A DNA stretch of 58,096 bases from a virus. Lineage: Duplodnaviria; Caudoviricetes. Shown here piece by piece: positions 3,001-31,147 of this stretch (its first letter is position 1; each line of letters starts with the position of its first letter). Below the pieces are notes generated by a model. That model was not told where the DNA came from. It searched no databases and worked only from the letters and a program-made list of their open reading frames with translations. A program made the translations under genes and the position numbers. The stretch is from the IMG/VR virus record IMGVR_UViG_3300032731_001278, positions 1 through 58,096 of that record. The stretch is one strand, 5' to 3'.

Positions 3001-3765
3001 ACCATATTCGGCATTACCGGCGCGATCACTGGCGGCCCGCTGTCTATCATCAACAACACCCTTGAAAGTTCAGGCAACGACGCGATCTTGTTTACCGCCG
3101 GGACCGCCATTCACGTCGAAAACAACATCATCCTTAACGCTGGTGCTCGCGCGATTCAGTTAGATAACTCGGACAGATCCACTATTGTTGGAAATGGTAT
3201 TACCTCAAGCGGTAGCGACGGAATTTATCTGAATAACTGTGACGACTGCGACGTAACTGGTAACAGAAGCAACCAGAATGGTGGACACGGAATTAACCTG
3301 AATGGCGGCGACAATAACGTATTGACGGGTAATAAGTGTCAAAATAACACGGGTGAAGGAATTAACCTAAACACTTGCATTAAGTGTACGGTAACTGGTA
3401 ATGGTTGTTCGGAAAACAATTCTGGTATTGTAGCAACCGCTACAACAACTTGTGTACTTAGCGGAAATAGTTGTAACGACAACGATATTCATGGCATCCA
3501 CTACGACGGTGATTACGGAAGTATCACGGGTAACGTATGCGCGGTGAACGGAACGCTTGCTGGTCAATACGGAATTTACATCATCGGCGGTGCTGTGTAT
3601 AACGCGTGCTCTGGGAACCAGGCGACAAATAGCGGAGACGTCACGGCTCCAGGCGCGGGTTACGACATCTACAATAACGGCGCGAATAATGGAATAGGTG
3701 TCGCGCAAGCGAATAACTGCGCGTCTTTTAACACGGGTATCGCAGCGAGTATTTTTGACGTGTAG
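52..3765 (+). CDS. Tail fibre/tailspike with DUF6519-like N-terminus and right-handed parallel beta-helix repeats
   Basis: N-terminus YSKNIYDPFKRYWGALLQ...VDADFND resembles DUF6519-type tail-associated domains. LQAAINYA..GVVRVRPGTY opens a pectate-lyase-like helix, followed by many xxGN/NN-GI repeats. Confidence 0.8.
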   Translation: MGLPTGQYSKNIYDPFKRYWGALLQESKPTDRIPWVDADFNDHSRNMIENTRRFRHEVFEDGTPGATHFLIDESTIVTNVNNFEINGGDGTQEGAGRYYLGGMTAVIPELYEFDADASTAPAAQMDFLHHRNTNLTDTVLTDVDADYNTTDNGGLGELAGRDLIPKVDEAGLVTRFLIISNTANTITTAGGMFAVASLNDYYMVAPSMPAGARTDTVYLDVYLDEENAVEDPDLLHAMVGVTGGVEACRRLKLIQQIHVYEGNTYAAPLLEYTALSGNYHYRVAIAQFDRLGGDNTITTAMITDLRPTWTGYGSSHEVINARDSTVYSTVYTTLDDRLEFAEDDALDAHLFIDECRSDGTISGGVTGGVGTPNITYTAWVGYVGAERVSIVGGNVAVGVAADYYLSVDSTGTVSANAAIPPGEALLAFFEVVGANIAQIRDWRFWLNTLDTHNEVIVSGTTGEGNVSGLQAAINYAIVRKRGVVRVRPGTYAPAIAITIQDIVTATTTFAAEDLEIIFEPGAVIEPAGDFAALTLTNTENVTIRGLEVLGTNLTNATAMISVGGCTDTIFTETVIDGVGAAGDGFSLSACTRLRIDGLVADNLSETGIQHTAGTTTDLHIDHANITALVDGITFGAGVVKSSSIRNTEVDGFAGFGIEVIAADLNILIERVTSTGQVCAAVISSAGSGIHVSNVDVTSSSCSTAGVVFGSSALNSSLKDSYLYDITTGPAVLLDTAQSTIVADVYINENGAAEYPISIDNSTHCTLQDVTVINALAAGIRVLTSSYCTISNCRVENTLRYAVHAEDSPYLKVVDCNLVDVVAGGGNSTYVHLEGCSYSRIAHNGITHLIAGTAYGVQTLDFGGAENVGVGIVDNVIYLGGGDYGIYLGGAGAVDEQCTVTGNEINFSALGSTGIFIDDLIESVISGNVINSAATGISTFGNTYGGAEDLSISNNVIKSCTTGINITGLLAVDVSVNGNVVRDSTIFGITGAITGGPLSIINNTLESSGNDAILFTAGTAIHVENNIILNAGARAIQLDNSDRSTIVGNGITSSGSDGIYLNNCDDCDVTGNRSNQNGGHGINLNGGDNNVLTGNKCQNNTGEGINLNTCIKCTVTGNGCSENNSGIVATATTTCVLSGNSCNDNDIHGIHYDGDYGSITGNVCAVNGTLAGQYGIYIIGGAVYNACSGNQATNSGDVTAPGAGYDIYNNGANNGIGVAQANNCASFNTGIAASIFDV

Positions 3766-3768
3766 AAA

Positions 3769-4323
3769 TTAGGTGAAATCTACAAGTGGGATGATCGCCA
3801 CGTCCATTTCGCTCCACGTCGGATTTCCATTTACCTCAATGGCTACGTGAAGCTCTGAATCCACCACCACCAAGCTTCCGACGTTCACGATGTCGTTAGG
3901 TCCAGAAGATACTTCGAAATACGAAACTACCCAGTTGATGTAGCTTTCCGTGTCGTCCGTTAAGATCACTACCCTGTCTGGAATTTCAATGGTCGTGTTC
4001 GCGTATGTGTATTCGACATATCCGTCACTAATTTCAAAGTTGTCGGCATTACCTTCTAAATCAGTGTAATGAACGGTGTAGTGAATAGCTCCCGCGGCCG
4101 TTACCAGCGTCGATTCCACGCTGTCGATACGAATGTCGAGTTCCTCGTCCACGATCGCGAGATCAGCTACGTCACCATTCAAGAGATCGACTTCGAGACG
4201 AAGCTGCAAAACCTCGTCTGACATCTCTTCGAGTGAAGAGTAGGGCGTCGTGTCCATCTCCCCCTCCGTAGCGCATCCGATACCGATCATTCCGACCACA
4301 ATCATCAAAATCCAATTCCTCAT
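3769..4323 (-). CDS. Putative lipoprotein with a coiled-coil segment
   Basis: MRNW + hydrophobic stretch + IGC lipobox-like motif; AGGAGG RBS upstream; acidic body. Confidence 0.65.
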   Translation of the reverse strand: MRNWILMIVVGMIGIGCATEGEMDTTPYSSLEEMSDEVLQLRLEVDLLNGDVADLAIVDEELDIRIDSVESTLVTAAGAIHYTVHYTDLEGNADNFEISDGYVEYTYANTTIEIPDRVVILTDDTESYINWVVSYFEVSSGPNDIVNVGSLVVVDSELHVAIEVNGNPTWSEMDVAIIPLVDFT

Positions 4324-4350
4324 GATAGCCTCCTAAGCTTTGTTGTCTAA

Positions 4351-4380
4351 CGTTTACCACAACACTTAGCTAACTGTCAA
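4351..4380 (-). promoter_or_regulatory. Sigma70-type promoter with TTAGCTAA box in the spacer
   Basis: TTGACA-18nt-TAAACG with TG extension; TTAGCTAA at 4366-4373. Confidence 0.55.
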
Positions 4381-4434
4381 GTGTTTGCTTGAGCGGTTTT
4401 GGAGGTTTTCGTAGACGAGTTAGACGCAAAACAA

Positions 4435-4457
4435 AAAGTTTGCACGGTGCAAACTTT
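4435..4457. repeat. Dyad repeat copy 1 (AAAGTTTGC-ACGGT-GCAAACTTT)
   Basis: Read directly; extends to 16-bp perfect arms (4430-4462). Confidence 0.95.
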
Positions 4458-4537
4458 TTGTTCATTTGGCTCGGTATATCAAGCTCTACCGAGCTACCGC
4501 TATAATCTCTACGAGATACCACTTCCAAGAATAGCGT

Positions 4538-4566
4538 TTGACGAGGAGAATCTTAAGCGGTAAAAT
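4538..4566 (+). promoter_or_regulatory. Sigma70-type promoter
   Basis: TTGACG-17nt-TAAAAT upstream of the initiator-like gene. Confidence 0.65.
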
Positions 4567-4692
4567 TTCTCTATCAATCTTAGCGTGGTAACTAGGTTGA
4601 TGGAAAGCACGGTAATGCACAACACCAGACTTCGACTCGTTAACGGCTTTCAGCGGCATTCTTGCCGCGGCTGTGCTTACGTTTACGAGTTA

Positions 4693-4720
4693 CCCGGTAG
4701 CCCACCACGGGGCTACCGGG
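4693..4720 (+). promoter_or_regulatory. 11-bp hairpin ending 15 nt before the probable start codon
   Basis: CCCGGTAGCCC-ACCACG-GGGCTACCGGG. Confidence 0.7.
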
Positions 4721-4735
4721 ACTGGTGGTGTACTC

Positions 4736-5749
4736 GTGGAACTAGCTGATATACTCACCGACAAAAGTAGATTAGTCGTACCCCGTAGCCTTTTGCGTAT
4801 GCTTGAAGTGCCCGGTAAACCGTCAAAAATTGCAGCGATAATCTTGAAAGTTCTACAGGAAACGCAATACCGTGACGGCTTGCGTTGTTGCGGTGATTTT
4901 GACGTTGACCTAAAGATTGGTGACTGTCTAATAACGCTCTCAACGCTTCAAAAAGTTAGCGGCGCTAGCCAAAAACACACCGCCAAGAAGTGGCTAATGG
5001 AGGCGGCGAATGGTCTAGACTGGACGGTTGAACCGCTTGGGAAAAACGATCCTCGGGTAACAAAAAGTGGTATCCCTTCGCTTACCCCTTCGCGTATCCC
5101 TTACGGTACCCCTCCACGTACCCCTTCTGGCGCTCATCTTGGAATTCTCGTAACCGTAAGTAACTACAAGGAATTAACGTTTATTCCGAGCGCTTGTAAA
5201 ATCAACGGAAGTATCCCTTCCGGTATCCCTTCCGGTATCCCTTCATGTACCCCTTCCGTACCACAGAACCAACACCGTTCTACCGACACCGCTTTAACTA
5301 ACACCAAGAACCAACACAAGAAGAGAGAAGAAAGCACTATCTCTCAAAGATACAATAAAGAAAATGCCGTAGGGAAGGATAGCGTGACTATCAAAACCTT
5401 AAAATCCGATGATACCCACCGCGATCTTTTAAGCGAAGAATCAGATCATGGAGAGGTTGCTAGGATCTTCATGCGCTGGGGAAAAGTTTGGAATGTAGAC
5501 GGTAACACTCACCTCGATGAAGATGTCGAATCAATCGTTCGGAAAGCTCGCCAAAACTTTTCGACGGAAGAACTCTACGAAGCTATCGACGGTTCGAAGC
5601 TGGATGATTGGGAATTTCGTCCGACTCGTTGTGATTTAACAGATCTTTTTAAATCCAACAAACGTATTCGAATCTATCGGGAGCTAGCGCGGTCAACGCC
5701 TCAAGGGTGTCAAACCCTACAGCAACAACTTGAAGTATTAGCGGATTGA
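4736..5749 (+). CDS. Phage replication initiator/replisome organiser-like protein (paralog A)
   Basis: Aligns by eye with 56763..57842: N-terminal wHTH-like part, ILVTVSNYKELT vs HVISVLNYDELT, AIDGSK. Internal 12-bp repeats. GTG start at 4736 chosen by alignment; the ORF track start is 4673. Confidence 0.7.
   Translation: MELADILTDKSRLVVPRSLLRMLEVPGKPSKIAAIILKVLQETQYRDGLRCCGDFDVDLKIGDCLITLSTLQKVSGASQKHTAKKWLMEAANGLDWTVEPLGKNDPRVTKSGIPSLTPSRIPYGTPPRTPSGAHLGILVTVSNYKELTFIPSACKINGSIPSGIPSGIPSCTPSVPQNQHRSTDTALTNTKNQHKKREESTISQRYNKENAVGKDSVTIKTLKSDDTHRDLLSEESDHGEVARIFMRWGKVWNVDGNTHLDEDVESIVRKARQNFSTEELYEAIDGSKLDDWEFRPTRCDLTDLFKSNKRIRIYRELARSTPQGCQTLQQQLEVLAD
5069..5128 (+). repeat. Five tandem 12-bp iteron-like repeats (consensus sGTAyCCCTTCn)
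   Basis: GGTATCCCTTCG CTTACCCCTTCG CGTATCCCTTAC GGTACCCCTCCA CGTACCCCTTCT. Confidence 0.85.
5210..5257 (+). repeat. Four tandem 12-bp iteron-like repeats
   Basis: AGTATCCCTTCC GGTATCCCTTCC GGTATCCCTTCA TGTACCCCTTCC. Confidence 0.85.
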
Positions 5750-15178: not shown

Positions 15179-15265
15179 TGGTGGGAGAGGAGGGGCTCGA
15201 ACCCTCAATCTCATCGAGCGCGAGTTCTTAAAACTCGAGTGTATCTCCAGTTCCACCACTCTCCC
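15179..15265 (-). tRNA. tRNA-Leu(UAA)
   Basis: GGGAGAG/CTCTCCC acceptor stem + ACCA; anticodon arm CGAGT-TTTAAGA-ACTCG; long variable arm; T-arm GAGGG-TTCGAGC-CCCTC. Confidence 0.92.
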
Positions 15266-18490: not shown

Positions 18491-19171
18491 CTAGGCGAGA
18501 TTGAAATCACCGCGGAAGAACTCTCCGGGGGGACTTAGCTGAGCGAAGAATGGGATGTCGGATGCTGGGTCACTAACCGGGTTGGTTGGTGCAGCAGCCG
18601 GCTCAGCCTTCTTCTCTTCCTTCTTCTCTTCCTTCTTCTCTTCCTTCTTCTCTTCCTCAACAGGGGGCGCGGCTTCTTCCTTCGGCGGCGGCTCAGGCTT
18701 CTCGTCCTTGGGCGGCGCAGCCTTCTTCTCGCCATCCTTACCGCCCCAATCGGAAGCGGGGGTGGCGACGGTGCGGCCAGTGGGCGTACGGACCGACGTG
18801 ACGTTGGCGAACTTACCGCCCTGCGTCGAATCCTTGTGGGTCGTCTTGATCTCGCAAGGCATGCCGATCAACTCATCGACGTCAATGGACTTACCGAGCG
18901 ATTCGTCCGTACCCAGTTCTTCCAGGGCGCGAATGATACGGCCGCAGAAATTCTTCAGCGACGGGGCGGCACTCGTCAGAGCGTTGAGCTTCAAGCCGTT
19001 GAGCTTGTCGGCTTCCTCTTCGTCGGGCGCGACCGACAACTCGAAAATCCACTTCCAGTTGGCGCCGTACTTGGACGTGCCGTCTTGGATCTCGGTCAGC
19101 GTGGCGCAATACCACTCATCTTCGATCGGAAGGGTGAAATCAGATTCTACGATAGTGACTTTGCGACCCAT
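18491..19171 (-). CDS. Phage ssDNA-binding protein-like (DUF669/OB-fold-like) with low-complexity tail
   Basis: WY.ATL.EI..WIFEL..DELIG.PCEI..FANV.SV pattern; EEKK repeats; DIPF near the end. Confidence 0.6.
   Translation of the reverse strand: MGRKVTIVESDFTLPIEDEWYCATLTEIQDGTSKYGANWKWIFELSVAPDEEEADKLNGLKLNALTSAAPSLKNFCGRIIRALEELGTDESLGKSIDVDELIGMPCEIKTTHKDSTQGGKFANVTSVRTPTGRTVATPASDWGGKDGEKKAAPPKDEKPEPPPKEEAAPPVEEEKKEEKKEEKKEEKKAEPAAAPTNPVSDPASDIPFFAQLSPPGEFFRGDFNLA
18608..18655 (-). repeat. Four tandem 12-bp repeats encoding EEKK
   Basis: (CTTCTTCTCTTC)x4 on the plus strand. Confidence 0.85.
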
Positions 19172-19535: not shown

Positions 19536-20096
19536 TTAATGAGTCATTGTGTATTCTCGCATTTGGCGATCGTGAACGCGTTTAAGTACCTGACACAGAC
19601 CGTCGGAGTCAGAAACGATTTGCGCCAAGCATTCAGCTTTCATCTCAGCTTCAGCCGCTTTCATCTCATATCCGCCCTTGATCTTGTTCTTGATATATTC
19701 GCCATGCGCCGCGACGAATTTTTGTTGCACGCCTTCCAGTCGGCTCTTTTCCTTCAAAACCGCTTGCGAGCTTTCGCGTCGGCCGCGTCCTTGAAGGTAC
19801 TTGACGGCGGTCTTCGCCTTGATACCCGCGATACCAATCGGGGGCGCCCAAGCCTTGAGCTGCGCCATGTCGTATTCGATCTCTTGCGGGTGCGCGCCGC
19901 CGAGTTCCGCCTCGCTGATGGTCTGGTATTTCGCCAAGATTCCTAAGATGGCTTGCAGCGCTTCAACGAGGTATTCATCTTGAGGATCGGGCTCTTCGTC
20001 TTCAGCTGTGCGTGTCAGAATATCTGACAACATGTTCATCATCAGATCGACGCGGATTTCAGTCGTGTCGGTTACCATTTCTACGGTTCGCCCCAT
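19536..20096 (-). CDS. Hypothetical alpha-helical protein
   Basis: TGATG coupling to dnaE. Confidence 0.7.
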   Translation of the reverse strand: MGRTVEMVTDTTEIRVDLMMNMLSDILTRTAEDEEPDPQDEYLVEALQAILGILAKYQTISEAELGGAHPQEIEYDMAQLKAWAPPIGIAGIKAKTAVKYLQGRGRRESSQAVLKEKSRLEGVQQKFVAAHGEYIKNKIKGGYEMKAAEAEMKAECLAQIVSDSDGLCQVLKRVHDRQMREYTMTH

Positions 20097-23000
20097 CAGT
20101 TTTCCTTATCTTCGTAGAAGACAGTCATGTACTTCACATATCCCTTGTCGCCTACCGCTACGGTGTTTTGATCGTCGCTGAGTATGTAGCACTTGACGAA
20201 AACGAAATCGCCAACTTTCAGTTCCATCGGTTTTATCTCAGGCCACTTCGATGACCAGATCAAAACCTCGCCGCCGCCTTCACCGTCGTCGATGTCGAGC
20301 TTGCACATTTCGGTCTTGGGATTGCCGTGTTTGTCTTCACCCTGGGGCGTCCAGACACGTATAGCGCGAATCATGCCGCCGGTAAGCTTGTCGCCCTTGG
20401 ATGGCGACAGAAGCCGTATGGGGCGCCACCCCTTCCCCTTCAGCTCTTTGATGTGTTCGCTCATCGGGTTCGTGAGCGTGAAGCCGAAAGCCTCAGCTTC
20501 GGCACGAACCTTTTCCGCGAGCGTCCATTCCTTGGGGGCGACGTAGTTGACGAACTCTTCTTCGTCCCACGTCTTTTTTCGTTCTAGCTGTTCCTCGAAG
20601 ACGTGAACAGCAGCGCGGGGATTCGTCCAGCAACTGAAGGTACCAGCCAACGCCAACGATTTCTTGGCGCGTTTGTTGGCGTACCGGCCAGCCACGCGTT
20701 CGTGGAAGTCTTTGAATCCCTGGAAACCTTCTGGGTAGACGTGCTGCGCCAGGAATTCTTTTTGCTCGTCGTCCGTCATCTTGGCGAGCTTTTTCTCTAG
20801 CGTTTTCGTCAACGGTTTCTTGTGTTCCTTGACCGCTTCGTGAACCGCGTCGATTGTCTTTTCGCTCACGTAGGGCAAGCAGCCGACGCCCAGTCGAATG
20901 GTTTTGTCGTCAACGACGCGGAATTCGTATCGCAAATCATTGAGATCGGGCGGTAGAAGCTCGACGCCGTTGTAATGAATGGACTCGAGACCGGTCAGGA
21001 TCTGGTCCTTCTTATGGAGGTAGGCGTTCAGATACGCGGCGATGTAGTGGGCGGGATAATGAACGTATAAGTACAACGTCCAGAAAGCTAATAGGGCGTA
21101 GCTAGCTGAGTGGGATTTATTGAACGAATAGTTGGCTCCAGCACGAAGTGCCTCGAAAATGTTCTTGGCTGAATCTTCGGTGATTCCGTTTTTGATACAA
21201 CCCTCTACGAATTGCCCTTCAAGCGTCCGCATTAGTTCGGGTAATTTTTTCCCGATGGCTTTTCTCAGTGAGTCAGATGACGCTAAATCGAAACCAGCTA
21301 ACTCAGCAGTAGTTCGTATGGCTTGTTCTTGGTATAGGATAACTCCGCGCGTTTCCTCGACGATAGGCCATAGAGCTTTCTCTGACGGTTTATAATCACC
21401 TTTAGCGTATGAGTCGATAAACGCAGCAGCGCCAGGACGGACGATAGCGTTGAGCGCTACCGCGTCATTAAAACCCTTTACCCCAATCGTTTGTGCCGTT
21501 TGACGCATAACGTGGCTATTGAATTGAAATGATAATTTCGTATCACCGCGAGCAAGAGCTTTGATAACGCCCTCGTCTTCAAGCGAGATGTTACACAACC
21601 ACTCGTGCTGTTCCAAAAAAGTGAGTTCAGGCTTCAGCGTCTTCATTGCTTTACCGACGGCCGTTACAGTAGACGAACCAAGAAGGTCCATCTTGATGTA
21701 ATTCATCTTGTCGGTATCGCCCATGTCCGCTTGGACAAGCGTGACTACCTCACCCTTTTTTCGAACCGTCATCAGTCCGATATTGGACTCGAGCGGGATA
21801 GGGCTAATCACAACGCCAGCGGGATGCTTACCCTGCGCGAAGATACACCCTTCAAGCCGCATCGCCATGTCGAAGATTACAGGCTCTTGCTTCATGAATT
21901 CAATCATGCCTTGAGCTGTTTGTAGACTTCCGACGAGACTATTGGGTGGAGCGTTTTGAATTTGATCGGGGATTTCTTTCGAGAGAATTTCAGCCTTACG
22001 AAGTGGAAGGTTCATCGCGCGGAATACGCACTTGATTGAACTCTTACCCTTCATTGTCAAGACGGTTGGGATATTAGCGGTGTGAGGGTACTGTTCTGTA
22101 ATAAACCTGTACACCTCTTCTCTACGGTCATGTTGTAAATCTAGGTCAATATCTGGAAGTCCGATTCTGCCCTTATTAACGAAGCGTTCGAAGTAAAGAC
22201 CATGCTCTATTGGGTCAAGGTCCGTGATACCCAAACCGTAAACAATCAAGCTTCCCGCTGCACTACCACGACCAGGACCGCGGAAGATTTCTTCCTTGTT
22301 CATGAAAGTCATTAGCGTATTCAACAACGCGAAATAGGGTACGTACCCAAGTTCCGTTAAGACTTTCGCTTCCATCTCGAAACGTTCACGATAGACGTCG
22401 TCGTCCAGCAACCCCTTCGCTTCCAGGTGTTTACGCGACTGTTTGATCGGATCGATTCCAGACGTGTCATCCGGGAACTTGAAGCTCTTGTCCAGCTCGT
22501 ACTCTTCACATAGGTCGCGAATCTCGAGCGTGGCGGCAATCCCCTTGTCGATAATATTGAAGTCGATACCGGGGTGGTGCTTTTCAAACAGGTCGCGTAA
22601 TTCAGCTGCTGTGGTGAAGTGATGCGTCGGTGACTGCTCCGGTTCGACGCGATCAATCGCCAACTCCATCGCCTTTTTGTATTCGTCGGGGTCGGTATTT
22701 TTGAGCGCTGGATCAACCAAGCTTTCCGGATCTACAACGAGTCGCTTTTGCCTTCCATCCGCACGAACCAATCTAGCGATGTCGGTGTCGTACTCGTTGA
22801 GCCACTGAACATCACCGGTTACCACCACATTCAAGTCGTTTTCAATGGCGTACTCGGCCATCGCGGCCATGCCTTGCGCCGCGAAACCATCGTCGTCAAG
22901 CCACGGCGCGAACTCAAGGTATAACCGCTCACCGTAGATCTTCCGAAGACGTCGAATCTCTCCTTCCGCGTCGATCTCATCGCCGACCGCGAAGCTCTGT

Positions 23001-23749
23001 AAGACACGTCCTTGAAGACCGGCGGTCAAACAAACGAGCCCTTCGCTATGCTCAGCGAGCATTGCGTGGTCAACGCGCGGAACGTAGTAGAACCCCTCCT
23101 GCCAAGCCTTACTCAGCAGCTCCAGGAGGTTCTTCCAACCCGTCTCGTTGATGGCGAGTAAAACTAATTCGTGGTTGTCGGTGAGCTTCTTTTCAACGGC
23201 GTCGGGCGAAACGTTTACGGTTGCGCCGCAAATTCCGAAAAGTTTGCGGCTCGCAAACTCTCGACGAAAACCCCACGTTCCAAGGATGTGATTTCGATCT
23301 GTAATCGCTACGCCGGGCTGCCCAAGCCGCATCGCTTTTTCGCAGTAGTTACGAATTTTGGTAGGCGACTCGTGGTAGGAGTAGTCGGAACGAACGTGAA
23401 GGTGAACGAACTCTTCGTCTTTTGCGCGGAACTCGAGCGGGTTCCTTGTCCAAGCAAACTGCGGAACAACCTCAGCCTTGGGGCGACTAATCGCTACTTT
23501 GACGGCGCGTTCAGGCGTCGTCCAGATACGGCGGTTGAAATCCTTGACGAACAGCGAGATGAACTCGACGTTCGCTTCTTCAAAACCGCTCAGCGCACCA
23601 ACCGGGAAGCTCCACCCATCTTCCGGCGCTGCGAAATCGAACTGAACGGTGACCGCGCGATCGACGTACCGGACGCCGTTTTGTTCTTTGATACGAACAC
23701 CGTTGTCGACGGCCCACGCCCGCAGCTTTTGTTTATCGATGTCGTCCAT
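20096..23749 (-). CDS. dnaE: DNA polymerase III alpha subunit (DnaE-type, 1217 aa from MDDIDK)
   Basis: PHP domain FVHLHVRSDYS/AITDRN, GRGSAAGS, PDIDLD, KHPAGVVI, YQEQ, FNKSH, C-terminal OB fold. The frame stays open upstream to 24307. Confidence 0.93.
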   Translation of the reverse strand: MDDIDKQKLRAWAVDNGVRIKEQNGVRYVDRAVTVQFDFAAPEDGWSFPVGALSGFEEANVEFISLFVKDFNRRIWTTPERAVKVAISRPKAEVVPQFAWTRNPLEFRAKDEEFVHLHVRSDYSYHESPTKIRNYCEKAMRLGQPGVAITDRNHILGTWGFRREFASRKLFGICGATVNVSPDAVEKKLTDNHELVLLAINETGWKNLLELLSKAWQEGFYYVPRVDHAMLAEHSEGLVCLTAGLQGRVLQSFAVGDEIDAEGEIRRLRKIYGERLYLEFAPWLDDDGFAAQGMAAMAEYAIENDLNVVVTGDVQWLNEYDTDIARLVRADGRQKRLVVDPESLVDPALKNTDPDEYKKAMELAIDRVEPEQSPTHHFTTAAELRDLFEKHHPGIDFNIIDKGIAATLEIRDLCEEYELDKSFKFPDDTSGIDPIKQSRKHLEAKGLLDDDVYRERFEMEAKVLTELGYVPYFALLNTLMTFMNKEEIFRGPGRGSAAGSLIVYGLGITDLDPIEHGLYFERFVNKGRIGLPDIDLDLQHDRREEVYRFITEQYPHTANIPTVLTMKGKSSIKCVFRAMNLPLRKAEILSKEIPDQIQNAPPNSLVGSLQTAQGMIEFMKQEPVIFDMAMRLEGCIFAQGKHPAGVVISPIPLESNIGLMTVRKKGEVVTLVQADMGDTDKMNYIKMDLLGSSTVTAVGKAMKTLKPELTFLEQHEWLCNISLEDEGVIKALARGDTKLSFQFNSHVMRQTAQTIGVKGFNDAVALNAIVRPGAAAFIDSYAKGDYKPSEKALWPIVEETRGVILYQEQAIRTTAELAGFDLASSDSLRKAIGKKLPELMRTLEGQFVEGCIKNGITEDSAKNIFEALRAGANYSFNKSHSASYALLAFWTLYLYVHYPAHYIAAYLNAYLHKKDQILTGLESIHYNGVELLPPDLNDLRYEFRVVDDKTIRLGVGCLPYVSEKTIDAVHEAVKEHKKPLTKTLEKKLAKMTDDEQKEFLAQHVYPEGFQGFKDFHERVAGRYANKRAKKSLALAGTFSCWTNPRAAVHVFEEQLERKKTWDEEEFVNYVAPKEWTLAEKVRAEAEAFGFTLTNPMSEHIKELKGKGWRPIRLLSPSKGDKLTGGMIRAIRVWTPQGEDKHGNPKTEMCKLDIDDGEGGGEVLIWSSKWPEIKPMELKVGDFVFVKCYILSDDQNTVAVGDKGYVKYMTVFYEDKEN
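23239..23261. repeat. Dyad repeat copy 5 (spacer GGCTC, one mismatch) inside dnaE
   Basis: AAAGTTTGC-GGCTC-GCAAACTCT, read as REFASRKLF in the PHP domain. Confidence 0.9.
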
Positions 23750-24449
23750 TCCGTGAACCTTTTTTCTAGATGGAGAATTATAGCTGTTCGAATCGTTTGT
23801 TGGAACAAATTGATAGGTATAAGCTTGATTTCCAGACTTCCAAACTTTCCCCGGAATCGGTACTCGTGCCCACCCCGATTGTTCCATGTGAATTTTTGCG
23901 TTACCGCGTTCACAAACCCAGTGTTCCCACCTGTGTAGAAATGTATGCCCGACCCGAATCAAGTCTCGACCGCCATGACGCCCGTTGCTGTACGACGAAG
24001 CTCTAGCTCCATCTAACGTCTCGTAAATTGGTCTACGATTCCGTTTGGTGCATTCCCAACCTGAACATTTATAAACGTGCCCGGTGTGCCCTTGTCCTTC
24101 GTCATGATACGTAACGAGTACCGGCCAACGTCCGCGATTAATCAGCACTTTCATTTGCCGTCGTAGTGGTTTACTGATGTGATTCAATTGTCGTTCCGTC
24201 TTTGGGACAGCCACCATTCTACTTAATGCCAATACCCCCCCGGGGCGCTTCGGGGCATACGGCGCGGGCGGCGCCGGGTGGAGGAGGTTGCCATACATAA
24301 CCCGCAACTATTTTGTCGTTTTCGTACACCCCGAAGGCATAGGTGGCGTTATTCCCCGCGGAGTGGTAGCCATGAAAACGCTCGCATAAGTCTCTTACTT
24401 CTTCTAAACCGCACGGGCGGATGTCGTATTTCGGAGACAAGTTTGTCAT
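23750..24449 (-). pseudogene. Mom-like (GNAT-fold) DNA-modification gene frameshifted at a G7 tract; distal half in frame with dnaE
   Basis: The N-half (CERFHGYHS..FGVYE..YVWQPP..) and C-half (VLALSRMV..LVTYHDEGQGHTGHVYKCSGW) join if the G-tract at 24235-24241 is G6. Confidence 0.7.
23777..23805 (-). promoter_or_regulatory. Internal promoter for dnaE within the open Mom-DnaE linker
   Basis: TTCCAA-17nt-TATAAT, ending 27 nt before ATG 23749; AAGG RBS. Confidence 0.55.
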
Positions 24450-24760
24450 TAGAGCGAGCCCGTACCGCCAAGCCGTTGCTTCCGTCGTTCAAGGCCTTTG
24501 AGGACCGCGGCGCGGGTAGCCGCGTTTGCTTTCCACTTGATGCCGGAAGGCCGGTGCGCTGCGTTCCAGTCCTCTTGGCTCATGTGGTAGACGCCACCGG
24601 GGATCGTGGTCATCGGCGTTTTGCACTCGGGGCAGCTTGGCGGCCCTTCGCTACGACGCCACAATTCTTCCAGGTACATCTCACCACATTCCGAACAGAT
24701 GAAATCATCGTACCGCAACATGTTGGGGGATTCGTGGACGACGACCTTTACGTTTTCCAT
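24449..24760 (-). CDS. FmdB-like zinc-ribbon protein
   Basis: DFICSECG..SCPECKTPM..PG pattern. Confidence 0.65.
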   Translation of the reverse strand: MENVKVVVHESPNMLRYDDFICSECGEMYLEELWRRSEGPPSCPECKTPMTTIPGGVYHMSQEDWNAAHRPSGIKWKANAATRAAVLKGLERRKQRLGGTGSL

Positions 24761-25952
24761 TCGTTAGCCTCTCGCGCCAAGTTTCAATGGCGCCGTCAAA
24801 CGCCGGGCCGTTCAACAATCCTTGATTTTGTAGGTTCCAAACCAACATGGCAAAATCATTCTGCGTTGGCTTGTACTTCGCTGAGCCGCGAATCTTTTCA
24901 GTTCGCCGAATGCTCTCGGTAACTGTAAGACCCATGAGAACATCGGCAACCGCTTCTTCTTTTGGAAGAACGCCGATGAGTCGATTCGGTGCCGCTTCGT
25001 CGTCTACTGAAATACTCGAGCATCGCGCGATCAACTTGCCGTACTTCTCCCAAAACTCGCACGCAATCTTTTGCCGTTGCGTTGGAATTTCGATCTCGAA
25101 ATTCAGGCGTTCACGAAGCGTCGTTGCGCCGTAGTTGAGTGCAATTGCTTCTTGTACGCCATGAATGCCGTTCAGATTCTTGGTACCTTGGCTTGGCGCC
25201 GAAAGTTTGAACGAGGTGTTATTGAAGGGTATCTTTCGCTCGATGTGTAGTCGAACCATCGCTTCGACAGGCTCGTTCGGTTTCGTAATGCCGTTGGCCA
25301 TAGCTCGCGCGGCCTTGAGCTTCCGACGAGCGCTGGAAATAACGCGTCGCGCTTCAGCTAACAATTCGTCCGGCACTTGATCGCACAGGGGTACTGCGTA
25401 CCTTCCACCGGAAGAGATCTTGGCGTAGCGATTAGGCGATAACTCAGCCAACTCGTCGATTTCGATATCGGGAACGCCGTGTAGCGTCAGCGCGATTTCA
25501 GCGAGCGTTCGATTATCTAGTTTCATTTCTAGGACAAGCAGCTCGTCTTCTGAAAACGGAATCATCTTACGAAGGAGTTGGACGCCCTTGTCCTTGTCGA
25601 TCATTCCGTCTTCTTTGTAGAACGACTCCGGGGCGCGGTAGAAGAGCCAGTTTTCGTTTTTGGCGCCAACTTCTACGTCGTCGTTGTCGAACTCGAAGTT
25701 GGTTTGCTTGTACTTCCGATGGTTAACGATCCGCCTGAACGTGGTGTAACAACCCCGAGCGCGCCAGGTGATCCAGTTGGACATCGCGCCACGCTCCGGA
25801 TCGAACTCGTGCCACCTAGAGAAAATCTCGAGGAGTAGCTCTTGCTTGAAATCTTCTTGGTCTTCGAGATCAAGTCGGCGCGTGAACAGGTTACCTAGCG
25901 CCAAGACTTGAGCGTACAGATCTGGTGGTTGCGCCACCCAAAGTTCCGGCAT
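24705..25952 (-). CDS. Sigma-70 family RNA polymerase sigma factor with C-terminal extension
   Basis: Region 2 EDFKQE..FDPERGAMSNWITWRAR; region-4-like TLAEIA. Confidence 0.75.
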   Translation of the reverse strand: MPELWVAQPPDLYAQVLALGNLFTRRLDLEDQEDFKQELLLEIFSRWHEFDPERGAMSNWITWRARGCYTTFRRIVNHRKYKQTNFEFDNDDVEVGAKNENWLFYRAPESFYKEDGMIDKDKGVQLLRKMIPFSEDELLVLEMKLDNRTLAEIALTLHGVPDIEIDELAELSPNRYAKISSGGRYAVPLCDQVPDELLAEARRVISSARRKLKAARAMANGITKPNEPVEAMVRLHIERKIPFNNTSFKLSAPSQGTKNLNGIHGVQEAIALNYGATTLRERLNFEIEIPTQRQKIACEFWEKYGKLIARCSSISVDDEAAPNRLIGVLPKEEAVADVLMGLTVTESIRRTEKIRGSAKYKPTQNDFAMLVWNLQNQGLLNGPAFDGAIETWRERLTNGKRKGRRPRIPQHVAVR

Positions 25953-25976
25953 GTTTCATCGTCTCCCTGGAGAAGT

Positions 25977-26005
25977 AATCTATATCTTTCAGGGATAGTA
26001 GTCAA
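25977..26005 (-). promoter_or_regulatory. Sigma70-type promoter of the sigma-factor gene
   Basis: TTGACT-17nt-TAGATT. Confidence 0.65.
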
Positions 26006-26048
26006 GAACGTAATCGAGAAAGTTTTCGCGTTATTTTGAGCGGTTTTT

Positions 26049-26071
26049 AAAGTTTGCGGCTCGCAAACTTT
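26049..26071. repeat. Dyad repeat copy 6 (spacer GGCTC)
   Basis: 7 nt downstream of the primase stop codon. Confidence 0.95.
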
Positions 26072-26078
26072 TCAGAAT

Positions 26079-27203
26079 TCACCGCCGCAGCTTCTTTTTC
26101 AAATCATCTTCGGTTGGGGCGTGCCGAAGCTCGTAATAGTTTGATTTTGTTCGTAAAATTTGACGCGCCGCTTCGTTACTTCCGAGTTCATCGGGGTCGA
26201 TTCCTGCTGGTCCAACCACGTTCCAAGCCTGAACCGACCGGGTTGTCAGTCGCCGACAAGCTTTTTTGGCGTTGATTTGGCCGGCGTTGATTTTCTTCTT
26301 GACGTCGTTGTCAAACCAAACAAAAACCTTCCTGAAGTGTTCGACCAAAAGTGAAGTTTGCGCGGGCGACAACCGAGCTTGTCCAGCCATGATGGTTGGG
26401 ACGCCCCAGTAGTCCAGCGCCGCCATATCCCAAAAGCCTTCGACCACCACGACGTAATCTCCACTTATATTGTGGATGTTGTGAACGTGGAAGGGCGTCG
26501 GCGATTTTGCCGGGAAGAGCTTCTTCTTGTTTTGCGGCGGCGGTAGGTGTTCAACCAACGACATGTCGACCGCTTGCGCTTGGTAGTAGACCTGTTTCCC
26601 AGCTTTATCCCAGATCGGAACGATGAGCCGGTTGGCGTAGTAGCCGCTGTCAGCGAACTTCAGTCCCCACTTGTTGATGATACGTACGATCTCATCGCGG
26701 TTGTACCCCATCTTCATTCGAGTGGGATCCGTCATGACGTATTTGATGATCGGTTCGATGTCGTCGCACGTACGTGGCAAAGGAATGCGGGGTATTGAAT
26801 CAACCGTTCGAACTTTCTTTTCCTTCAGGCGGTTAAGTAGTTCGTCAATATCTGGCGCGGGAACTCGGTAAAGCTTGAACCACCGAACGAGCAAATCTTT
26901 GGCGGACTCTCGATTGATCTCCTTCAGTTCCGCGACAAAATCAAACAGGTCGCCCGCGCTACCGTGGAAGCAATTCCACCGGCCGATTTTCTGGGGGTCG
27001 CCTTGATTCTGAATAGCAAACGAAGGACTACGATCGGGCGGGTGGAACGGACACGCCGTAACGTAACCGGCGCTCTTGCGCCACGTCAGTACTTCGACTT
27101 CGAGCCGCTCAAGGAGCCTGTCGATCGGTACGTTTCGAACGATGTCAAGCTCTTCCGGCGTGTACTTCCGGTTGGAGCTTTTGATGGAAACGACACGCGC
27201 CAT
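26079..27203 (-). CDS. dnaG: DnaG-type DNA primase
   Basis: CPFH..PSF..WNCF zinc finger; RLIVPIWD; TOPRIM VVEGFWD, WFDND, DPDE. Confidence 0.9.
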   Translation of the reverse strand: MARVVSIKSSNRKYTPEELDIVRNVPIDRLLERLEVEVLTWRKSAGYVTACPFHPPDRSPSFAIQNQGDPQKIGRWNCFHGSAGDLFDFVAELKEINRESAKDLLVRWFKLYRVPAPDIDELLNRLKEKKVRTVDSIPRIPLPRTCDDIEPIIKYVMTDPTRMKMGYNRDEIVRIINKWGLKFADSGYYANRLIVPIWDKAGKQVYYQAQAVDMSLVEHLPPPQNKKKLFPAKSPTPFHVHNIHNISGDYVVVVEGFWDMAALDYWGVPTIMAGQARLSPAQTSLLVEHFRKVFVWFDNDVKKKINAGQINAKKACRRLTTRSVQAWNVVGPAGIDPDELGSNEAARQILRTKSNYYELRHAPTEDDLKKKLRR

Positions 27204-27204
27204 T

Positions 27205-27861
27205 TTAATCCGCCAACCCGTCGAGTTGCTGCTGCAAAGTTTGGGGCTTGTCGGAATTTTCGAATTCAGGCGCGTTTTCAGTGGTAAACGTTTCCATCGC
27301 AAGCTTGTCGCGAAGGATTCGATCGCCCAAAAATGGCTTGTTCCTGACCGCCCAGATCAGATATTTGCGGTACCGAATATTCGGATTGACACTGGAACGA
27401 TCGTACCGGCGTAACTTCTGAACGCCATCTTGCATGAGGCGACGGCCCAGCATCGCCCGTGAAAGATTCATGATCTCGCCGCGTTCTTCCATCAGGTCTA
27501 CGAAGAATGAAACGAAGTGTTTTGCGCCCCACTTACGAACCGGCGCGTCTTCGTAGTTTGGTTGGTCGATTTTAACGATTCGTTTGGGTTTTTTGGGCTC
27601 AACTTTTGGCTCCGTAAGAACGCCCGCTACCCTTGGGACGCCCGGTTTAGAGAACAGCCAACCGCGGTCCGTAGCCTCGAGCACCTGTTCGGAGACCCGT
27701 TCTTCCGAAAGGTTGCGTAGCGTCGCGAGTTGCTTGTACGTAATCTTGATTTGATCGTCGTCGGTACCGTTGAGCACGGCTGCGATCAGCGTGAGCTTCG
27801 CGCCGTCCGAAATCAAAGGATCTCGAACGAGCTTGTCAAGCCAAGAGCGGTTAAAAATCAA
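27205..27861 (-). CDS. Winged-HTH DNA-binding/initiator-like protein with C-terminal TLQQQLDGLAD
   Basis: DP.ISDGAKL..TYKQLA....SEERV..V.E....GWL, an HTH_36-like pattern; directly upstream of the primase. Confidence 0.65.
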   Translation of the reverse strand: MIFNRSWLDKLVRDPLISDGAKLTLIAAVLNGTDDDQIKITYKQLATLRNLSEERVSEQVLEATDRGWLFSKPGVPRVAGVLTEPKVEPKKPKRIVKIDQPNYEDAPVRKWGAKHFVSFFVDLMEERGEIMNLSRAMLGRRLMQDGVQKLRRYDRSSVNPNIRYRKYLIWAVRNKPFLGDRILRDKLAMETFTTENAPEFENSDKPQTLQQQLDGLAD

Positions 27862-29911: not shown

Positions 29912-31147
29912 TTAAATTAGAGATGAAACGTCCTTCCTTTCTTCGATCAGAGTTGTGGTTCTAGCAGCTAATCTACAACAATCTTTCTTGATATTCACAG
30001 AAGCGTGGATAACGTTCCCGTCTAGATCTGAAATCATGAAGTACCCGCTTGATCTCTTCCCCTTCACGAATCCAATTCCTTTAGCCGTACTTATCAAGTC
30101 GAACTTTCGTATACCAAAAAGTTTGCCGGTAGGGATTCGAAGATGAGATCGTTTACCCTTGGTCTGCTGATAGTCGCCAGCTGCTACGTGTTTTTTGAAG
30201 TAGGTATTTCGTCTAGGTGTAACCAATTCACCTTCTGCGCAGCAAATGGCTACGGCATCATTCACGTGGGACTTGGGAAGTTCAAGAACTTGCTCCCGCT
30301 TCCACTTCGTCATGTAGCCAAAAGTCTCTTCGAATTCCCAATCACCCTTCCTGAGTTGCGATTTGATAATTCCAATCTCAGTTGCATGCTTAGTTTTCGA
30401 CCGTCTACCTTTAAGTTCGAATACACCATCGTGGAGTTCACTGTGACATTCCGAACATAACGTTATCAAATTCTTTGGTTCGTTGGTTCCGCCTTTGGAC
30501 TTCCAGATGATGTGGTGAACGTGCAACTTACGATCACCTGACTTACAACCACGTCGTTGACATTTATAACCATCACGGTGAAGAACGTAAGCTTTTACGT
30601 TGTAATAGCCCTTTTGGTTTCCGTCTTGGTAACTTACACCGTTTACTTCTGGATTCACGATCTTGTGAATGTCGAAGCTTGCGAGTTCGAGTATCCATTT
30701 CGAAACAGGTAAGATCGATTCGACGAAGCGTTGTTCTCGACGGTGCGATTCGATTTTACTTCGGATGGAAGGTGCTAGCCTACCCTCTTTCCTCATCGAA
30801 GCGCGATTTAACCATCTAGCTGGACGGTACCGGCACTTCCTACTACGACGAGTTCGGCGATACATAGATTTTTGCACCATCTTCTTACTTACGTCGGTCC
30901 GTAGCTGAACTTCGGACTGGTAAACCACTTGCCCGTTAGTGACGACGGCGCATCCAACCGTCTTAGATCCGGCATCCATTCCAGCGGTTACCGGTTGCTT
31001 GTAACCGCTGGATCCGTACATCAGCTGGATAGTGAAAGGTGTTCTACTAACTACTCTAGCTTTCCCTTCAGTGAGTAACTTTCTCGCTTTTTGAGGTTTG
31101 CATGGCATCAACGGCTTACCGTTATGGTTGCGTACGTAAGCTAACAT
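29912..31147 (-). CDS. iscB: RNA-guided endonuclease IscB
   Basis: PLMP, RuvC-I GMDAG, Arg-rich helix RRTRR, RuvC-II E, HNH (HVHHI..GGTN..NLITLC..CH), RuvC-III HVNDA. Confidence 0.95.
   Translation of the reverse strand: MLAYVRNHNGKPLMPCKPQKARKLLTEGKARVVSRTPFTIQLMYGSSGYKQPVTAGMDAGSKTVGCAVVTNGQVVYQSEVQLRTDVSKKMVQKSMYRRTRRSRKCRYRPARWLNRASMRKEGRLAPSIRSKIESHRREQRFVESILPVSKWILELASFDIHKIVNPEVNGVSYQDGNQKGYYNVKAYVLHRDGYKCQRRGCKSGDRKLHVHHIIWKSKGGTNEPKNLITLCSECHSELHDGVFELKGRRSKTKHATEIGIIKSQLRKGDWEFEETFGYMTKWKREQVLELPKSHVNDAVAICCAEGELVTPRRNTYFKKHVAAGDYQQTKGKRSHLRIPTGKLFGIRKFDLISTAKGIGFVKGKRSSGYFMISDLDGNVIHASVNIKKDCCRLAARTTTLIEERKDVSSLI

What the first reader, a model, noticed from the sequence alone, without database searches (positions are those of the whole stretch)
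20096..24449. Possible phase-variable Mom-like DNA-modification enzyme fused to the DNA polymerase
Seen: a 76-aa ORF (24449) and the first about 165 residues after the tract in the 1403-aa ORF are two halves of one Mom-like protein, separated by CCCC-GGGGGGG (G7, 24235-24241). With G6 the frame reads CPEAPRG-VLALSRMV and runs with no stop into DnaE (1450 aa). A TTCCAA-17-TATAAT promoter and RBS in the linker would still give stand-alone DnaE from 23749. Established: Mu Mom is a GNAT-fold adenine-modifying anti-restriction enzyme, and homopolymer tracts mediate phase variation. Inference: an ON/OFF switch (slipped-strand change or frameshifting) that tethers a base-modifying enzyme to the replicase without endangering polymerase expression.
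Basis: partly seen in the sequence, partly recalled or inferred. Interest (0 to 1): 0.85.

Follow-up and report, generated by a model that had tools for sequence, protein, structure and literature searches.

The report
Frameshifted Mom gene upstream of phage DnaE
An uncultivated freshwater phage carries an inserted DNA-modification (Mom-type) gene just upstream of its DNA polymerase gene; one extra G breaks this gene, so it is most likely a recently disabled accessory gene and not a proven on/off switch.

Summary
The 76-aa ORF and the first ~163 codons after the G7 run (24235-24241, minus strand) are two halves of one Mom-family protein. Read through, they score 46.6-48.6 bits on Pfam PF25680. 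The break lies inside the family's invariant PEAPxGVLALSRM motif. There is no stop before DnaE.

- G7 is the consensus in contigs of 4 runs from 2 studies, so it is not an assembly error. No G6 allele is on record.
- All 24 relatives' loci that cover the site read through it in one frame.
- DnaE-clade relatives (L024, L025) have sigma-like gene, Zn-ribbon gene, then dnaE directly. The Mom gene is therefore a 700-nt lineage-specific insertion.
- DnaE homologues start at the same Met (23749), which has an RBS typical of this genome.
- No Mom-DnaE fusion turned up in 1.84 billion representative proteins.

Two results keep the bolder reading open. The gene shows no other decay: 1 mismatch in 61 conserved columns. 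Three relatives also have stop-less Mom ORFs that run in frame into the next gene; the closest of them does so with an intact Mom.

Best reading: a young frameshift-inactivated cassette (about 0.55). A reversible or recoded Mom-DnaE fusion cannot be excluded (about 0.2). Read-level data were not available.

The parts
24449..24760 (-). Zn-ribbon gene (103 aa). Its TAA overlaps the Mom ATG (TAATG). It belongs to a conserved sigma-like / Zn-ribbon / dnaE module and is not a Com-type partner of Mom.
   Evidence: ORF. One search gives only weak zinc-ribbon Pfam hits (best E 0.0039), with no Com family among the 14 families listed at E <= 1; homologues in L024 (87 aa, ends ..GGTGNL) and L025 (117 aa, ends ..GGTGMY) lie directly before dnaE, with no Mom gene between.
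24219..24449 (-). ORF76: Mom residues 1-69 (through ...CPEAP), then 7 out-of-frame residues (RGGIGIK) and TAG.
24235..24241 (-). G7 run (C7 on the + strand), preceded by CCCC. It has one base more than the in-frame state and is the break point of the Mom gene.
   Evidence: The consensus is G7 in contigs of runs X1, X3, X4 and X5.
23750..24238 (-). Mom C-terminal part (163 codons, GVLALSRMV... to ...KKVHG) in the +1 frame. It carries the counterparts of Mu R111, D149 and Y159. It has no start of its own and no stop.
23750..24449 (-). The whole 700-nt Mom cassette, inserted between the Zn-ribbon gene and dnaE.
   Evidence: In L024 and L025 the Zn-ribbon stop and the dnaE ATG are 13 nt (L024) and about 8 nt (L025, read) apart.
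23777..23805 (-). TTCCAA, 17-nt spacer, TATAAT. A promoter-like site inside the Mom tail or linker, with a perfect -10 and a weak -35.
   Evidence: Read. Not listed by the scan (first hexamer 3 of 6). Function is not shown.
23758..23765 (-). AAAAAAGG, an RBS-like element 8 nt before the dnaE ATG.
   Evidence: Similar AAAGG(G)TT elements precede other ATGs in the window.
20096..23749 (-). dnaE (1217 aa plus stop) with PHP, pol III alpha, finger and HHH_6 domains.
   Evidence: (P0126, 1217 aa, 100% identical). (homologues start at the same Met).
24705..25952 (-). Sigma-factor-like gene (415 aa), upstream member of the conserved module.
   Evidence: Sigma70_r2, E 3.4e-06; phrog_1740. Homologues of 389 and 375 aa in L024 and L025.

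Best explanation
A Mom-family gene was inserted as a 700-nt cassette between the Zn-ribbon gene and dnaE in the replication module of this phage lineage. Mom is a GNAT-fold enzyme; in phage Mu it puts a glycine-derived group on N6 of adenine in double-stranded DNA and protects against restriction.

The cassette has no stop codon of its own, as in some of its relatives, so in its intact (G6) state it would have been read straight into DnaE.

A CAG-to-CGG type change at a variable residue made a G6 run, and slippage then added one G. In the observed G7 state, ribosomes starting at the Mom ATG stop at TAG 24219 after 76 residues. The active-site residues are split between two frames, so no active Mom is made. 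DnaE is made from its own RBS and its ATG at 23749.

The gene is therefore a young, frameshift-inactivated accessory gene.

Shown:
- identity of the two halves as one Mom-family gene
- the insertion
- G7 as the consensus
- DnaE's own start
- absence of other decay

Inferred:
- the order of events
- that the break is a loss of function and not a regulated state
- that stopping read-through into dnaE may have favoured it
For: 1. One gene in two frames. There are 785 homologues at E <= 0.001 among 962 candidates. The 120 listed are stand-alone proteins of 205-330 aa, 60-73% identical. The break falls inside the invariant PEAPxGVLALSRMVAVP motif.

2. G7 is real and dominant. Contigs of X1 (possibly the source), X3, X4 (study P1, 2024) and X5 (study P2, 2020) bridge 24235-24241 with 0 gaps and 0 other letters.

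3. No relative shares the break. 24 of 24 loci that cover the site are continuous there.

4. Mutational path. L013 has CCG CAG GGG GTA (G5). The window has CCC CGG GGG G GTA.

5. Insertion. L024 and L025 have sigma-like gene, Zn-ribbon gene, then dnaE with no Mom.

6. DnaE stands alone. P0126-P0129 start at the homologous Met and P0127 (79% identical) is also 1217 aa. The RBS resembles those of other genes.

7. No Mom-DnaE fusion anywhere.
- 0 of 5 longer Mom proteins.
- 0 of the 120 proteins listed.
- 0 of 112 hits of a junction-spanning query against 1.84 billion representatives. Each hit has one stretch: 111 on the Mom part, 1 on the DnaE part.

8. Mom genes do decay in phages. L020 has a frame change plus truncation, and L012 has one extra C in a C9 run.

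9. No recoding signals. CGG makes up 17% of Arg codons. The RNA after the run folds no better than shuffles (z +1.30, 185 of 200 shuffles fold at least as well).

10. The key residues are split. Mu H58 aligns with H26 in ORF76. Mu R111, D149 and Y159 align with R77, D116 and Y126 after the break (residue roles from PMC13219725, section 13 read).
Against: The gene shows no decay other than the one extra G. It deviates at 1 of 61 columns that are at least 97% conserved in 118 homologues, where intact homologues average 0.55 with a maximum of 4. There are no other stops or shifts. This fits either a very recent break or a gene still under selection.

The break sits in the only long G/C run of a genome that otherwise avoids such runs. 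It is preceded by CCC_C, a motif I recall as prone to +1 slippage.

A second family member (L012) is broken in the same direction, also by one extra base in a homopolymer.

The closest Mom relative (L002 = P0121; 10 member sequences on 4 contigs) keeps an intact Mom ORF that runs in frame into an exonuclease gene. Such fusions can therefore persist.

Contigs cannot show minority G6 molecules, and depth was only about 3-8.
Confidence: 0.55

Rival explanations
1. Reversible DNA-level switch. The G run gains and loses a base during replication. A minority of genomes (G6) make a 1450-aa Mom-DnaE fusion that modifies DNA at the fork, while the majority (G7) make plain DnaE.
For: A homopolymer lies inside the ORF at the break. 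The gene is otherwise undecayed. DnaE expression is safeguarded by its own start. Stop-less in-frame Mom fusions exist in relatives L002, L027 and L044. L012 is also off by one base in a C9 run.
Against: Only one allele was seen, in 4 of 4 runs over 2 studies. No fused protein is on record. The run arose at a variable residue and is not conserved. According to PMC13219725 (abstract and sections 13 and 38 read), Mu Mom acts after replication on double-stranded DNA as a dimer, so tethering to the polymerase is not needed. DnaE-clade relatives lack Mom at this place.
Confidence: 0.13
2. Recoding. G7 is the working state. A +1 ribosomal slip at CCC_CGG/GGG_G, or RNA-polymerase slippage on the G run, yields a small amount of full-length Mom (as a Mom-DnaE fusion), keeping a harmful enzyme at a low dose.
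For: CCC_C and GGG_G allow re-pairing in the +1 frame (sequence). A slip at CCC_C gives APGGVLALS, which is the sequence of the intact homologue P0014. The gene is undecayed. L012 needs the same +1 correction inside CCC repeats. I recall from the Mu literature that mom expression is tightly limited; this was not checked here.
Against: The arrangement is not conserved in any of 24 relatives. There is no hungry codon: CGG is 17% of Arg codons. There is no downstream structure. The product would be a 1450-aa fusion, because no stop follows the Mom domain.
Confidence: 0.08
3. Sequencing or assembly artefact. The true sequence is G6, and a Mom-DnaE fusion, or a Mom gene with an overlooked stop, is simply encoded.
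For: Homopolymers are the commonest site of indel errors. The platforms of the runs are not on record.
Against: Independent Logan contigs from 4 runs and 2 studies agree on G7 and do not end at the run. The window record itself is a fifth assembly.
Confidence: 0.04
4. The broken cassette is kept for another role. For example, it may supply a promoter or leader (TATAAT at 23782-23777) for dnaE, or ORF76 translation coupled to the Zn-ribbon gene may tune downstream expression.
For: There is a perfect -10 hexamer and an RBS in the linker. The Mom ATG overlaps the Zn-ribbon stop. In relatives, dnaE follows the Zn-ribbon gene within 8-13 nt, as if translationally coupled.
Against: The promoter-like site fails the scan's rule, and the region has no more such sites than shuffles. 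Nothing requires the Mom coding sequence to stay intact for this role, yet it is intact.
Confidence: 0.08

Closest known systems
Mom of phage Mu (Pfam PF25680; structure 8bv8)
   Same: The family match is above threshold when the gene is read through, and it matches the PHROG 'Mom-like' family. The intact homologue P0001 folds (pLDDT 93.2) as a GNAT whose two best PDB matches are the Mu Mom chains (E 9.2e-10 and 4.9e-09, TM 0.58-0.62), ahead of generic GNATs at about 1e-5. The counterparts of Mu H58, R111, D149 and Y159 are kept.
   Different: Identity to Mu Mom is only about 24% over 124 columns (hhalign E 0.0025). Mu R151, essential according to PMC13219725, aligns with an invariant Gly, and the counterpart of S124 is unclear. 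There is no com-like partner. The gene is frameshifted and lacks a stop. It belongs to a large uncultivated clade; cultured phages match at 22-31% only.
Stop-less Mom ORFs fused in frame to the next gene (L002 = P0121 cluster, L027, L044)
   Same: The closest Mom relative (73%) also has no stop. It runs across an AGGAG + ATG into the next gene, an exonuclease (phrog_1218). L027 and L044 do the same with other downstream genes.
   Different: There the Mom part is intact and the partner is not DnaE. Here the Mom part is broken. Whether any of these fusions is made or works as a fusion protein is untested.
Phase-variable (contingency) genes with homopolymer runs, such as phase-variable DNA methyltransferases of bacterial pathogens (recalled, not searched in detail)
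   Same: A G run inside a DNA-modification gene, where a one-base change switches the frame.
   Different: No length polymorphism was seen. The run is short (7), not conserved, and sits in a phage, not a bacterial chromosome. The full-text search (listing only) gave no phage Mom example.
Programmed frameshifts (prfB +1, dnaX -1) and transcriptional slippage (recalled)
   Same: A slippery CCC_C / G-run at the frame change. A +1 shift would restore the product.
   Different: There is no conserved stimulator, no in-frame stop or rare codon at the site, no downstream structure and no conservation in relatives.
Phage-encoded DnaE-type replicases
   Same: PHP, pol III alpha, finger and HHH_6 domains. 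Cultured-phage DnaE-like polymerases match at about 26%.
   Different: This clade has a 115-residue N-terminal extension shared by P0127-P0129 and lies in a primase / sigma-like / Zn-ribbon / dnaE module.

Membership tests
Mom family (PF25680) | Profile match above Pfam's gathering score | tested here: met
   Read through: 46.6 bits (CCCC=P) and 48.6 bits (CGGG=R) against 27.1. The halves alone score 13.1 and 25.3 bits, both below threshold. phrog_1384 E 3.5e-16.
Mom family (PF25680) | GNAT fold closest to Mu Mom | tested here: met
   Tested on the intact homologue P0001 (71% identical to the read-through over the alignment; 73% by BLAST), not on the window's own broken product. pLDDT 93.2. 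Top PDB matches are 8bv8_B and 8bv8_A, E 9.2e-10 and 4.9e-09.
Mom family (PF25680) | Residues essential in Mu Mom (R111, S124, D149, R151; PMC13219725 section 13) | tested here: inconclusive
   hhalign of A1 against Mu Mom: R111 aligns with R77 and D149 with D116 (also H58 with H26 and Y159 with Y126), all kept. R151 aligns with G118, not kept. S124 aligns with L88, with an invariant Ser four residues on. The alignment probability is only 11.8%.
Mom family (PF25680) | One uninterrupted reading frame with its own stop | tested here: not met
   A +1 base in the G run and no stop before the end of dnaE.
Mom family (PF25680) | Adenine N6 hypermodification activity | not testable with these tools
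   Needs LC-MS or SMRT data on DNA.
Mu-type mom regulation (Com zinc-finger activator upstream) | A small zinc-finger gene that goes with mom | tested here: not met
   The upstream Zn-ribbon gene has no Com family among its Pfam hits at E <= 1. It is present next to dnaE in relatives that lack Mom.
Phase-variable contingency locus | Run length differs between molecules, samples or relatives, with both ON and OFF alleles | tested here: not met
   G7 in 4 of 4 runs laid and no ON allele among proteins on record. This holds at consensus level only; minority reads were not testable.
Phase-variable contingency locus | Repeat tract maintained in related genes | tested here: not met
   Of 24 relatives that cover the site, only L016 has a long run there (G8, in frame). 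Its sister L015 has none, and most others have mixed codons.
Programmed ribosomal frameshift | Slippery site plus stimulator, conserved among relatives | tested here: not met
   A slippery CCC_C / GGG_G is present. There is no structure (z +1.30), CGG is not rare, and no relative shares the shift at this site.
Mom-DnaE fusion protein | A single protein with both domains in some genome | tested here: not met
   0 of 112 hits match both parts. 0 of 5 longer Mom proteins carry DnaE domains. None of the 120 proteins listed has both.
DnaE (pol III alpha) replicase | PHP, pol III alpha, finger and HHH domains | tested here: met
   E 5.8e-33, 1.4e-59, 2.5e-30 and 6.8e-09.

The most novel reading that the evidence does not exclude
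The G run is a working switch, acting by slippage in DNA or RNA or by a +1 ribosomal shift. From time to time it makes a replicative polymerase carrying an N-terminal Mom domain, so that a subset of progeny DNA is hypermodified as it is copied. The stop-less Mom cassettes seen in front of an exonuclease and other genes would then be a general way of docking this enzyme onto DNA-handling proteins.
Probability: 0.12. Interest if true: 0.8.

Novelty: new member of a known kind. Interest (0 to 1): 0.35.

Why it matters
If the break is simply a loss, the locus shows how an anti-restriction gene is gained as a small cassette in a phage replication module and then quickly silenced at a self-made homopolymer.

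Stop-less Mom ORFs that run in frame into the next gene occur in 3 of 24 relatives and in this window. That pattern is unexplained. It could point to how these cassettes move, or to real fusion enzymes.

If the run does switch, it would be the first case known to me of a phage replicase that conditionally carries a DNA-hypermodifying domain. I found no such case in the searches.

Tried and rejected
- **Close relatives by single protein.** None found in viral contigs or in cultured phages by blastn.
- **DNA of the closest DnaE relative.** P0127 (79% identical, from a 176,523-base contig) could not be reached. tblastn against phages gave only hits below 60% identity, viral contigs gave two loci at 29%, and genome contigs gave none. 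What lies before its dnaE is therefore unknown.
- **Sequence search of the PDB with profile A1.** It gave only a chance hit (spectrin, E 0.32). The fold search found Mu Mom instead.
- **Promoter claim.** The scan lists no site at 23777-23805, and the region has no more promoter-like sites than shuffles.
- **RNA structure after the run.** None above shuffles.
- **Rare-codon argument for a +1 shift.** Not supported by the phage's own codon usage; the host's usage is unknown.
- **C-half-only proteins.** One search returned proteins starting at MVAVP or VLALS (seen), which I considered as signs of recurrent breaks at the same site. I rejected this as uninterpretable without their DNA: they may be contig-edge pieces, and P0253 has the same C-terminal tail as the intact gene of L009.
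- **The in-frame A_AAA_AAG just before the dnaE ATG as a second shift site.** I considered it and dropped it as over-reading of an A-rich RBS.
- **RNA.** No RNA holder was listed.
- **Parts of the stretch without contig cover in X3-X5.** No weight given.
- **Supplements of PMC13219725.** The homologue alignments and mutant data were not seen and may bear on the residue mapping.
- **Literature.** led to PMC13219725, of which I read the abstract, sections 13 and 38 and 'find' passages; 'fusion' and 'fused' each occur 0 times in its main text. PMC7261163 was seen as a listing only. (listings only) gave no paper on a frameshifted, phase-variable or polymerase-fused Mom.

Full report
**What the window is.** It is a linear IMG/VR virus record of 58,096 bases, estimated 27% complete, with 52% G+C. 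Around the finding lies a replication module on the minus strand:
- primase (26082-27302; phrog_47, E 1.9e-28)
- a sigma-factor-like gene (24705-25952)
- a 103-aa Zn-ribbon gene (24449-24760)
- the Mom pieces
- dnaE (20096-23749)

Elsewhere the window has a helicase, an exonuclease, an HNH endonuclease, RtcB, a ParB-like gene, a tail-spike-like gene and one tRNA-Leu(TAA).

**The observation.** The minus strand reads ...GCG CCC CGG GGG GGT ATT GGC ATT AAG TAG, with G7 at 24241-24235 and TAG at 24221-24219. The 76-aa ORF and the 1403-aa ORF are one base out of register. Reading one base fewer gives ...CPEAPRGVLALSRMVAVPK....

On Pfam Mom (PF25680, gathering score 27.1), the halves alone score 13.1 and 25.3 bits. 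The read-through scores 46.6-48.6 bits in one stretch across the break. PHROG 'Mom-like DNA modification protein' gives E 3.5e-16.

A word-index search found 785 homologues at E <= 0.001 among 962 candidates. The 120 listed are 205-330 aa long, 60-73% identical, and cover 85-98% of the read-through. In the alignment the break falls inside the family's invariant PEAPxGVLALSRMVAVP motif, and the relatives end 5-10 residues after ...NQAYTY. In the window there is no stop at that point. The frame continues through 18 codons into the Met of DnaE at 23749 and on to the end of DnaE.

**Is it Mom-like?**
- The intact homologue P0001 is 71% identical to the window's read-through over the alignment (73% by BLAST). 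It was modelled with a 64-sequence alignment (pLDDT 93.2, pTM 0.88).
- Its two best PDB matches are the chains of the Mu Mom S124A crystal structure 8bv8 (E 9.2e-10 and 4.9e-09, TM 0.58-0.62). Ordinary GNATs follow at about 1e-5.
- A profile alignment to Mu Mom is weak (E 0.0025, probability 11.8%). It pairs Mu H58, R111, D149 and Y159 with invariant H26, R77, D116 and Y126, but pairs R151 with an invariant Gly. S124 is left unclear.
- The roles of these residues, the Gly-tRNA donor, the post-replicative action on double-stranded DNA and the dimer come from PMC13219725 (abstract and sections 13 and 38 read).
- Cultured phages hold only distant relatives: 29 records at 22-31% identity, several annotated 'Mom-like DNA modification protein'.

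The window's gene therefore belongs to a large uncultivated clade of the Mom family. Whether it carries out the same chemistry is not shown.

**Is G7 real, and does it vary?** Seven runs from three studies hold the stretch; all are served as Logan contigs and none is RNA. I laid four runs:
- X1 (possibly the source)
- X3 and X4 (freshwater study, 2024)
- X5 (virome study, 2020)

Each has a contig that bridges 24235-24241 with at least 31 letters on both sides, 0 gaps and 0 other letters, and no contig ends at the run. An assembly error is thus very unlikely, and G7 is the consensus in two studies four years apart. Contigs drop rare variants and depth was about 3-8, so a minority G6 population is not excluded.

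No protein on record corresponds to a G6 allele:
- No near-identical intact Mom (best 73%).
- No Mom-DnaE protein among the 5 longer Mom proteins.
- None among the 120 proteins listed. There the window's DnaE appears as a 1217-aa protein (P0126).

**Relatives of the Mom gene.** I examined 24 loci that cover the break site:
- L002-L013 and L015-L020
- L027 and L038
- L041-L044

All 24 read through the site in one frame. Most have codons such as CCN CAG/CAT/GCN GGN GTN. L013 has CCG CAG GGG GTA. A single A-to-G change at this variable residue would create the window's C GGG GGG run, which then gained one G. L016 has an in-frame G8 at this place and its sister L015 has none. The run is therefore a local accident, not a family feature.

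Two relatives are broken elsewhere. L012 has C9 where C8 would keep WQPPPPG in frame. L020 has a frame change and loses homology after ...GQGHTG. None of the loci has DnaE within its flanks. They share almost nothing else with the window.

**Relatives of DnaE.**
- The closest homologues start at the homologous Met: P0127 (79%, also 1217 aa), P0128 and P0129 (both 55% over the full alignment A2).
- A clade-specific scan of JGI metagenomes gave two contigs. In both, the order is sigma-like gene, Zn-ribbon gene (ending ...GGTGNL or ...GGTGMY, like the window's ...GGTGSL), then dnaE. The gaps are 13 nt in L024 and about 8 nt in L025 (read). No Mom gene is present. L025 also has the primase upstream.
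- The Mom sequence (24449-23750) is therefore a 700-nt insertion into a conserved module. The Zn-ribbon gene is not a Com-like partner of Mom.
- The dnaE ATG is preceded at 8 nt by AAAAAAGG, like other genes of the window.
- The TTCCAA-17-TATAAT site exists but is not called by the scan.

**Is there a Mom-DnaE fusion anywhere?** A 295-residue query spanning the Mom C-half, the linker and the DnaE N-terminus was scored against 1.84 billion representative proteins. There were 112 hits, each with one matched stretch: 111 on the Mom part and 1 (a DnaE, P0130) on the DnaE part. None matched both.

Stop-less Mom ORFs are nevertheless recurrent.
- The closest Mom relative (L002 = P0121, 558 aa, 10 member sequences on 4 contigs) has an intact Mom. 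It runs in frame across AGGAG + ATG into an exonuclease gene.
- L027 and L044 run into other downstream genes.
- P0122, P0123 and P0125 are further long forms.

**Decay and recoding signals.** At 61 columns that are at least 97% conserved in 118 homologues, the window's protein deviates once (D to N). Two of the 120 listed homologues were dropped for length outside 200-260 aa. Intact homologues deviate 0.55 times on average, with a maximum of 4. So there is no decay beyond the extra G.

G/C runs are avoided in this genome: 3 GGGGGG matches against 16.06 +/- 5.02 expected. CGG and GGG are not rare codons. The RNA after the run is not structured.

**Verdict.** The simplest account is as follows. 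A stop-less Mom cassette landed in front of dnaE. A substitution made a G6 run. One more G then broke the gene recently, and this allele now dominates. DnaE is made from its own start. The break may even have been favoured because it stops ribosomes from reading through the dnaE start; that last point is inference. I give this about 0.55.

A reversible switch or a recoding event that yields a Mom-DnaE fusion is not excluded (together about 0.2). In its favour, the gene is undecayed, the break is at a slippery run, and fused Mom ORFs persist in relatives. Against it, nothing positive was found: one allele, no conservation, no fusion on record, and no need for tethering given Mom's post-replicative action.

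Noticed in passing
L002:5983-7659; L027 (minus strand, ORF at reverse-complement coordinates 4253-5548); L044 (ORF around 3001-3800): Three of 24 relatives have a Mom ORF with no stop of its own. It runs in frame into the next gene: an exonuclease (phrog_1218) in L002, a protein of about 200 aa in L027, and a small protein that looks ribbon-helix-helix-like by eye in L044. The downstream gene in L002 keeps its own AGGAG + ATG.
   Followed up: partly
L012:1990-2003: A second Mom gene is broken by one extra base in a homopolymer. It has C9 where C8 would keep WQPPPPG in frame. It is otherwise intact and has its own stop.
   Followed up: partly
L020:3380-3860: A clearly decayed Mom gene, with a frame change in the N-terminal part and loss of homology after ...GQGHTG.
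   Followed up: partly
L016:3240-3262: An in-frame G8 run (CCG GGG GGG GCC) at the same place in the Mom gene as the window's G7. The sister locus L015 has CCC GGT GGA there.
   Followed up: no
window 24215-24221 (minus strand): The TAG that ends ORF76 is followed after one base by an ATG (TAGAATG). This ATG is Met78 of the Mom frame (SRMVAVP). Re-initiation there would give a product that lacks the Arg matching Mu R111.
   Followed up: no
P0129 and P0130 (alignment A2, columns about 899-1040): Two DnaE homologues of this clade carry an insertion of about 140 residues after ...YSFNK. It begins with Cys and ends ...SGN before SH, so it looks like an intein by eye. The window's DnaE has none.
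   Followed up: no
window 24449-27302 and L025:70-3543: A conserved module of primase, sigma-factor-like gene, Zn-ribbon gene and dnaE. Finding a sigma-like gene inside a replication module is unusual.
   Followed up: partly
window, whole: G/C homopolymers are strongly avoided: GGGGGG matches 3 times against 16.06 +/- 5.02 in shuffles. The only other run of 6 or more is G6 at 18527-18532.
   Followed up: partly
window 15179-15265, 43783-44955 and 29915-31147: tRNA-Leu(TAA), an RtcB-type tRNA ligase (phrog_1075, E 4.3e-117) and an HNH endonuclease (phrog_119, E 3.2e-50).
   Followed up: no
window 18491-19171 (minus strand): A 226-aa ORF with a low-complexity C-terminal part (PPKDEKPEPPPKEE..., EEKKEEKKEEKKEEKK). 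It is overlapped by long antisense ORFs of repetitive composition.
   Followed up: no
P0123 (1454 aa), P0124 (477 aa), P0125 (462 aa), P0250 (659 aa), P0255 (637 aa): Long proteins with a Mom domain at one end. By eye, P0123 carries a DPPY motif further on, and P0125 has Cys-rich repeats and an HNH-like end. P0124, P0250 and P0255 have the Mom domain at the C-terminus. Pfam finds only Mom in P0121-P0125 at E <= 0.001.
   Followed up: partly
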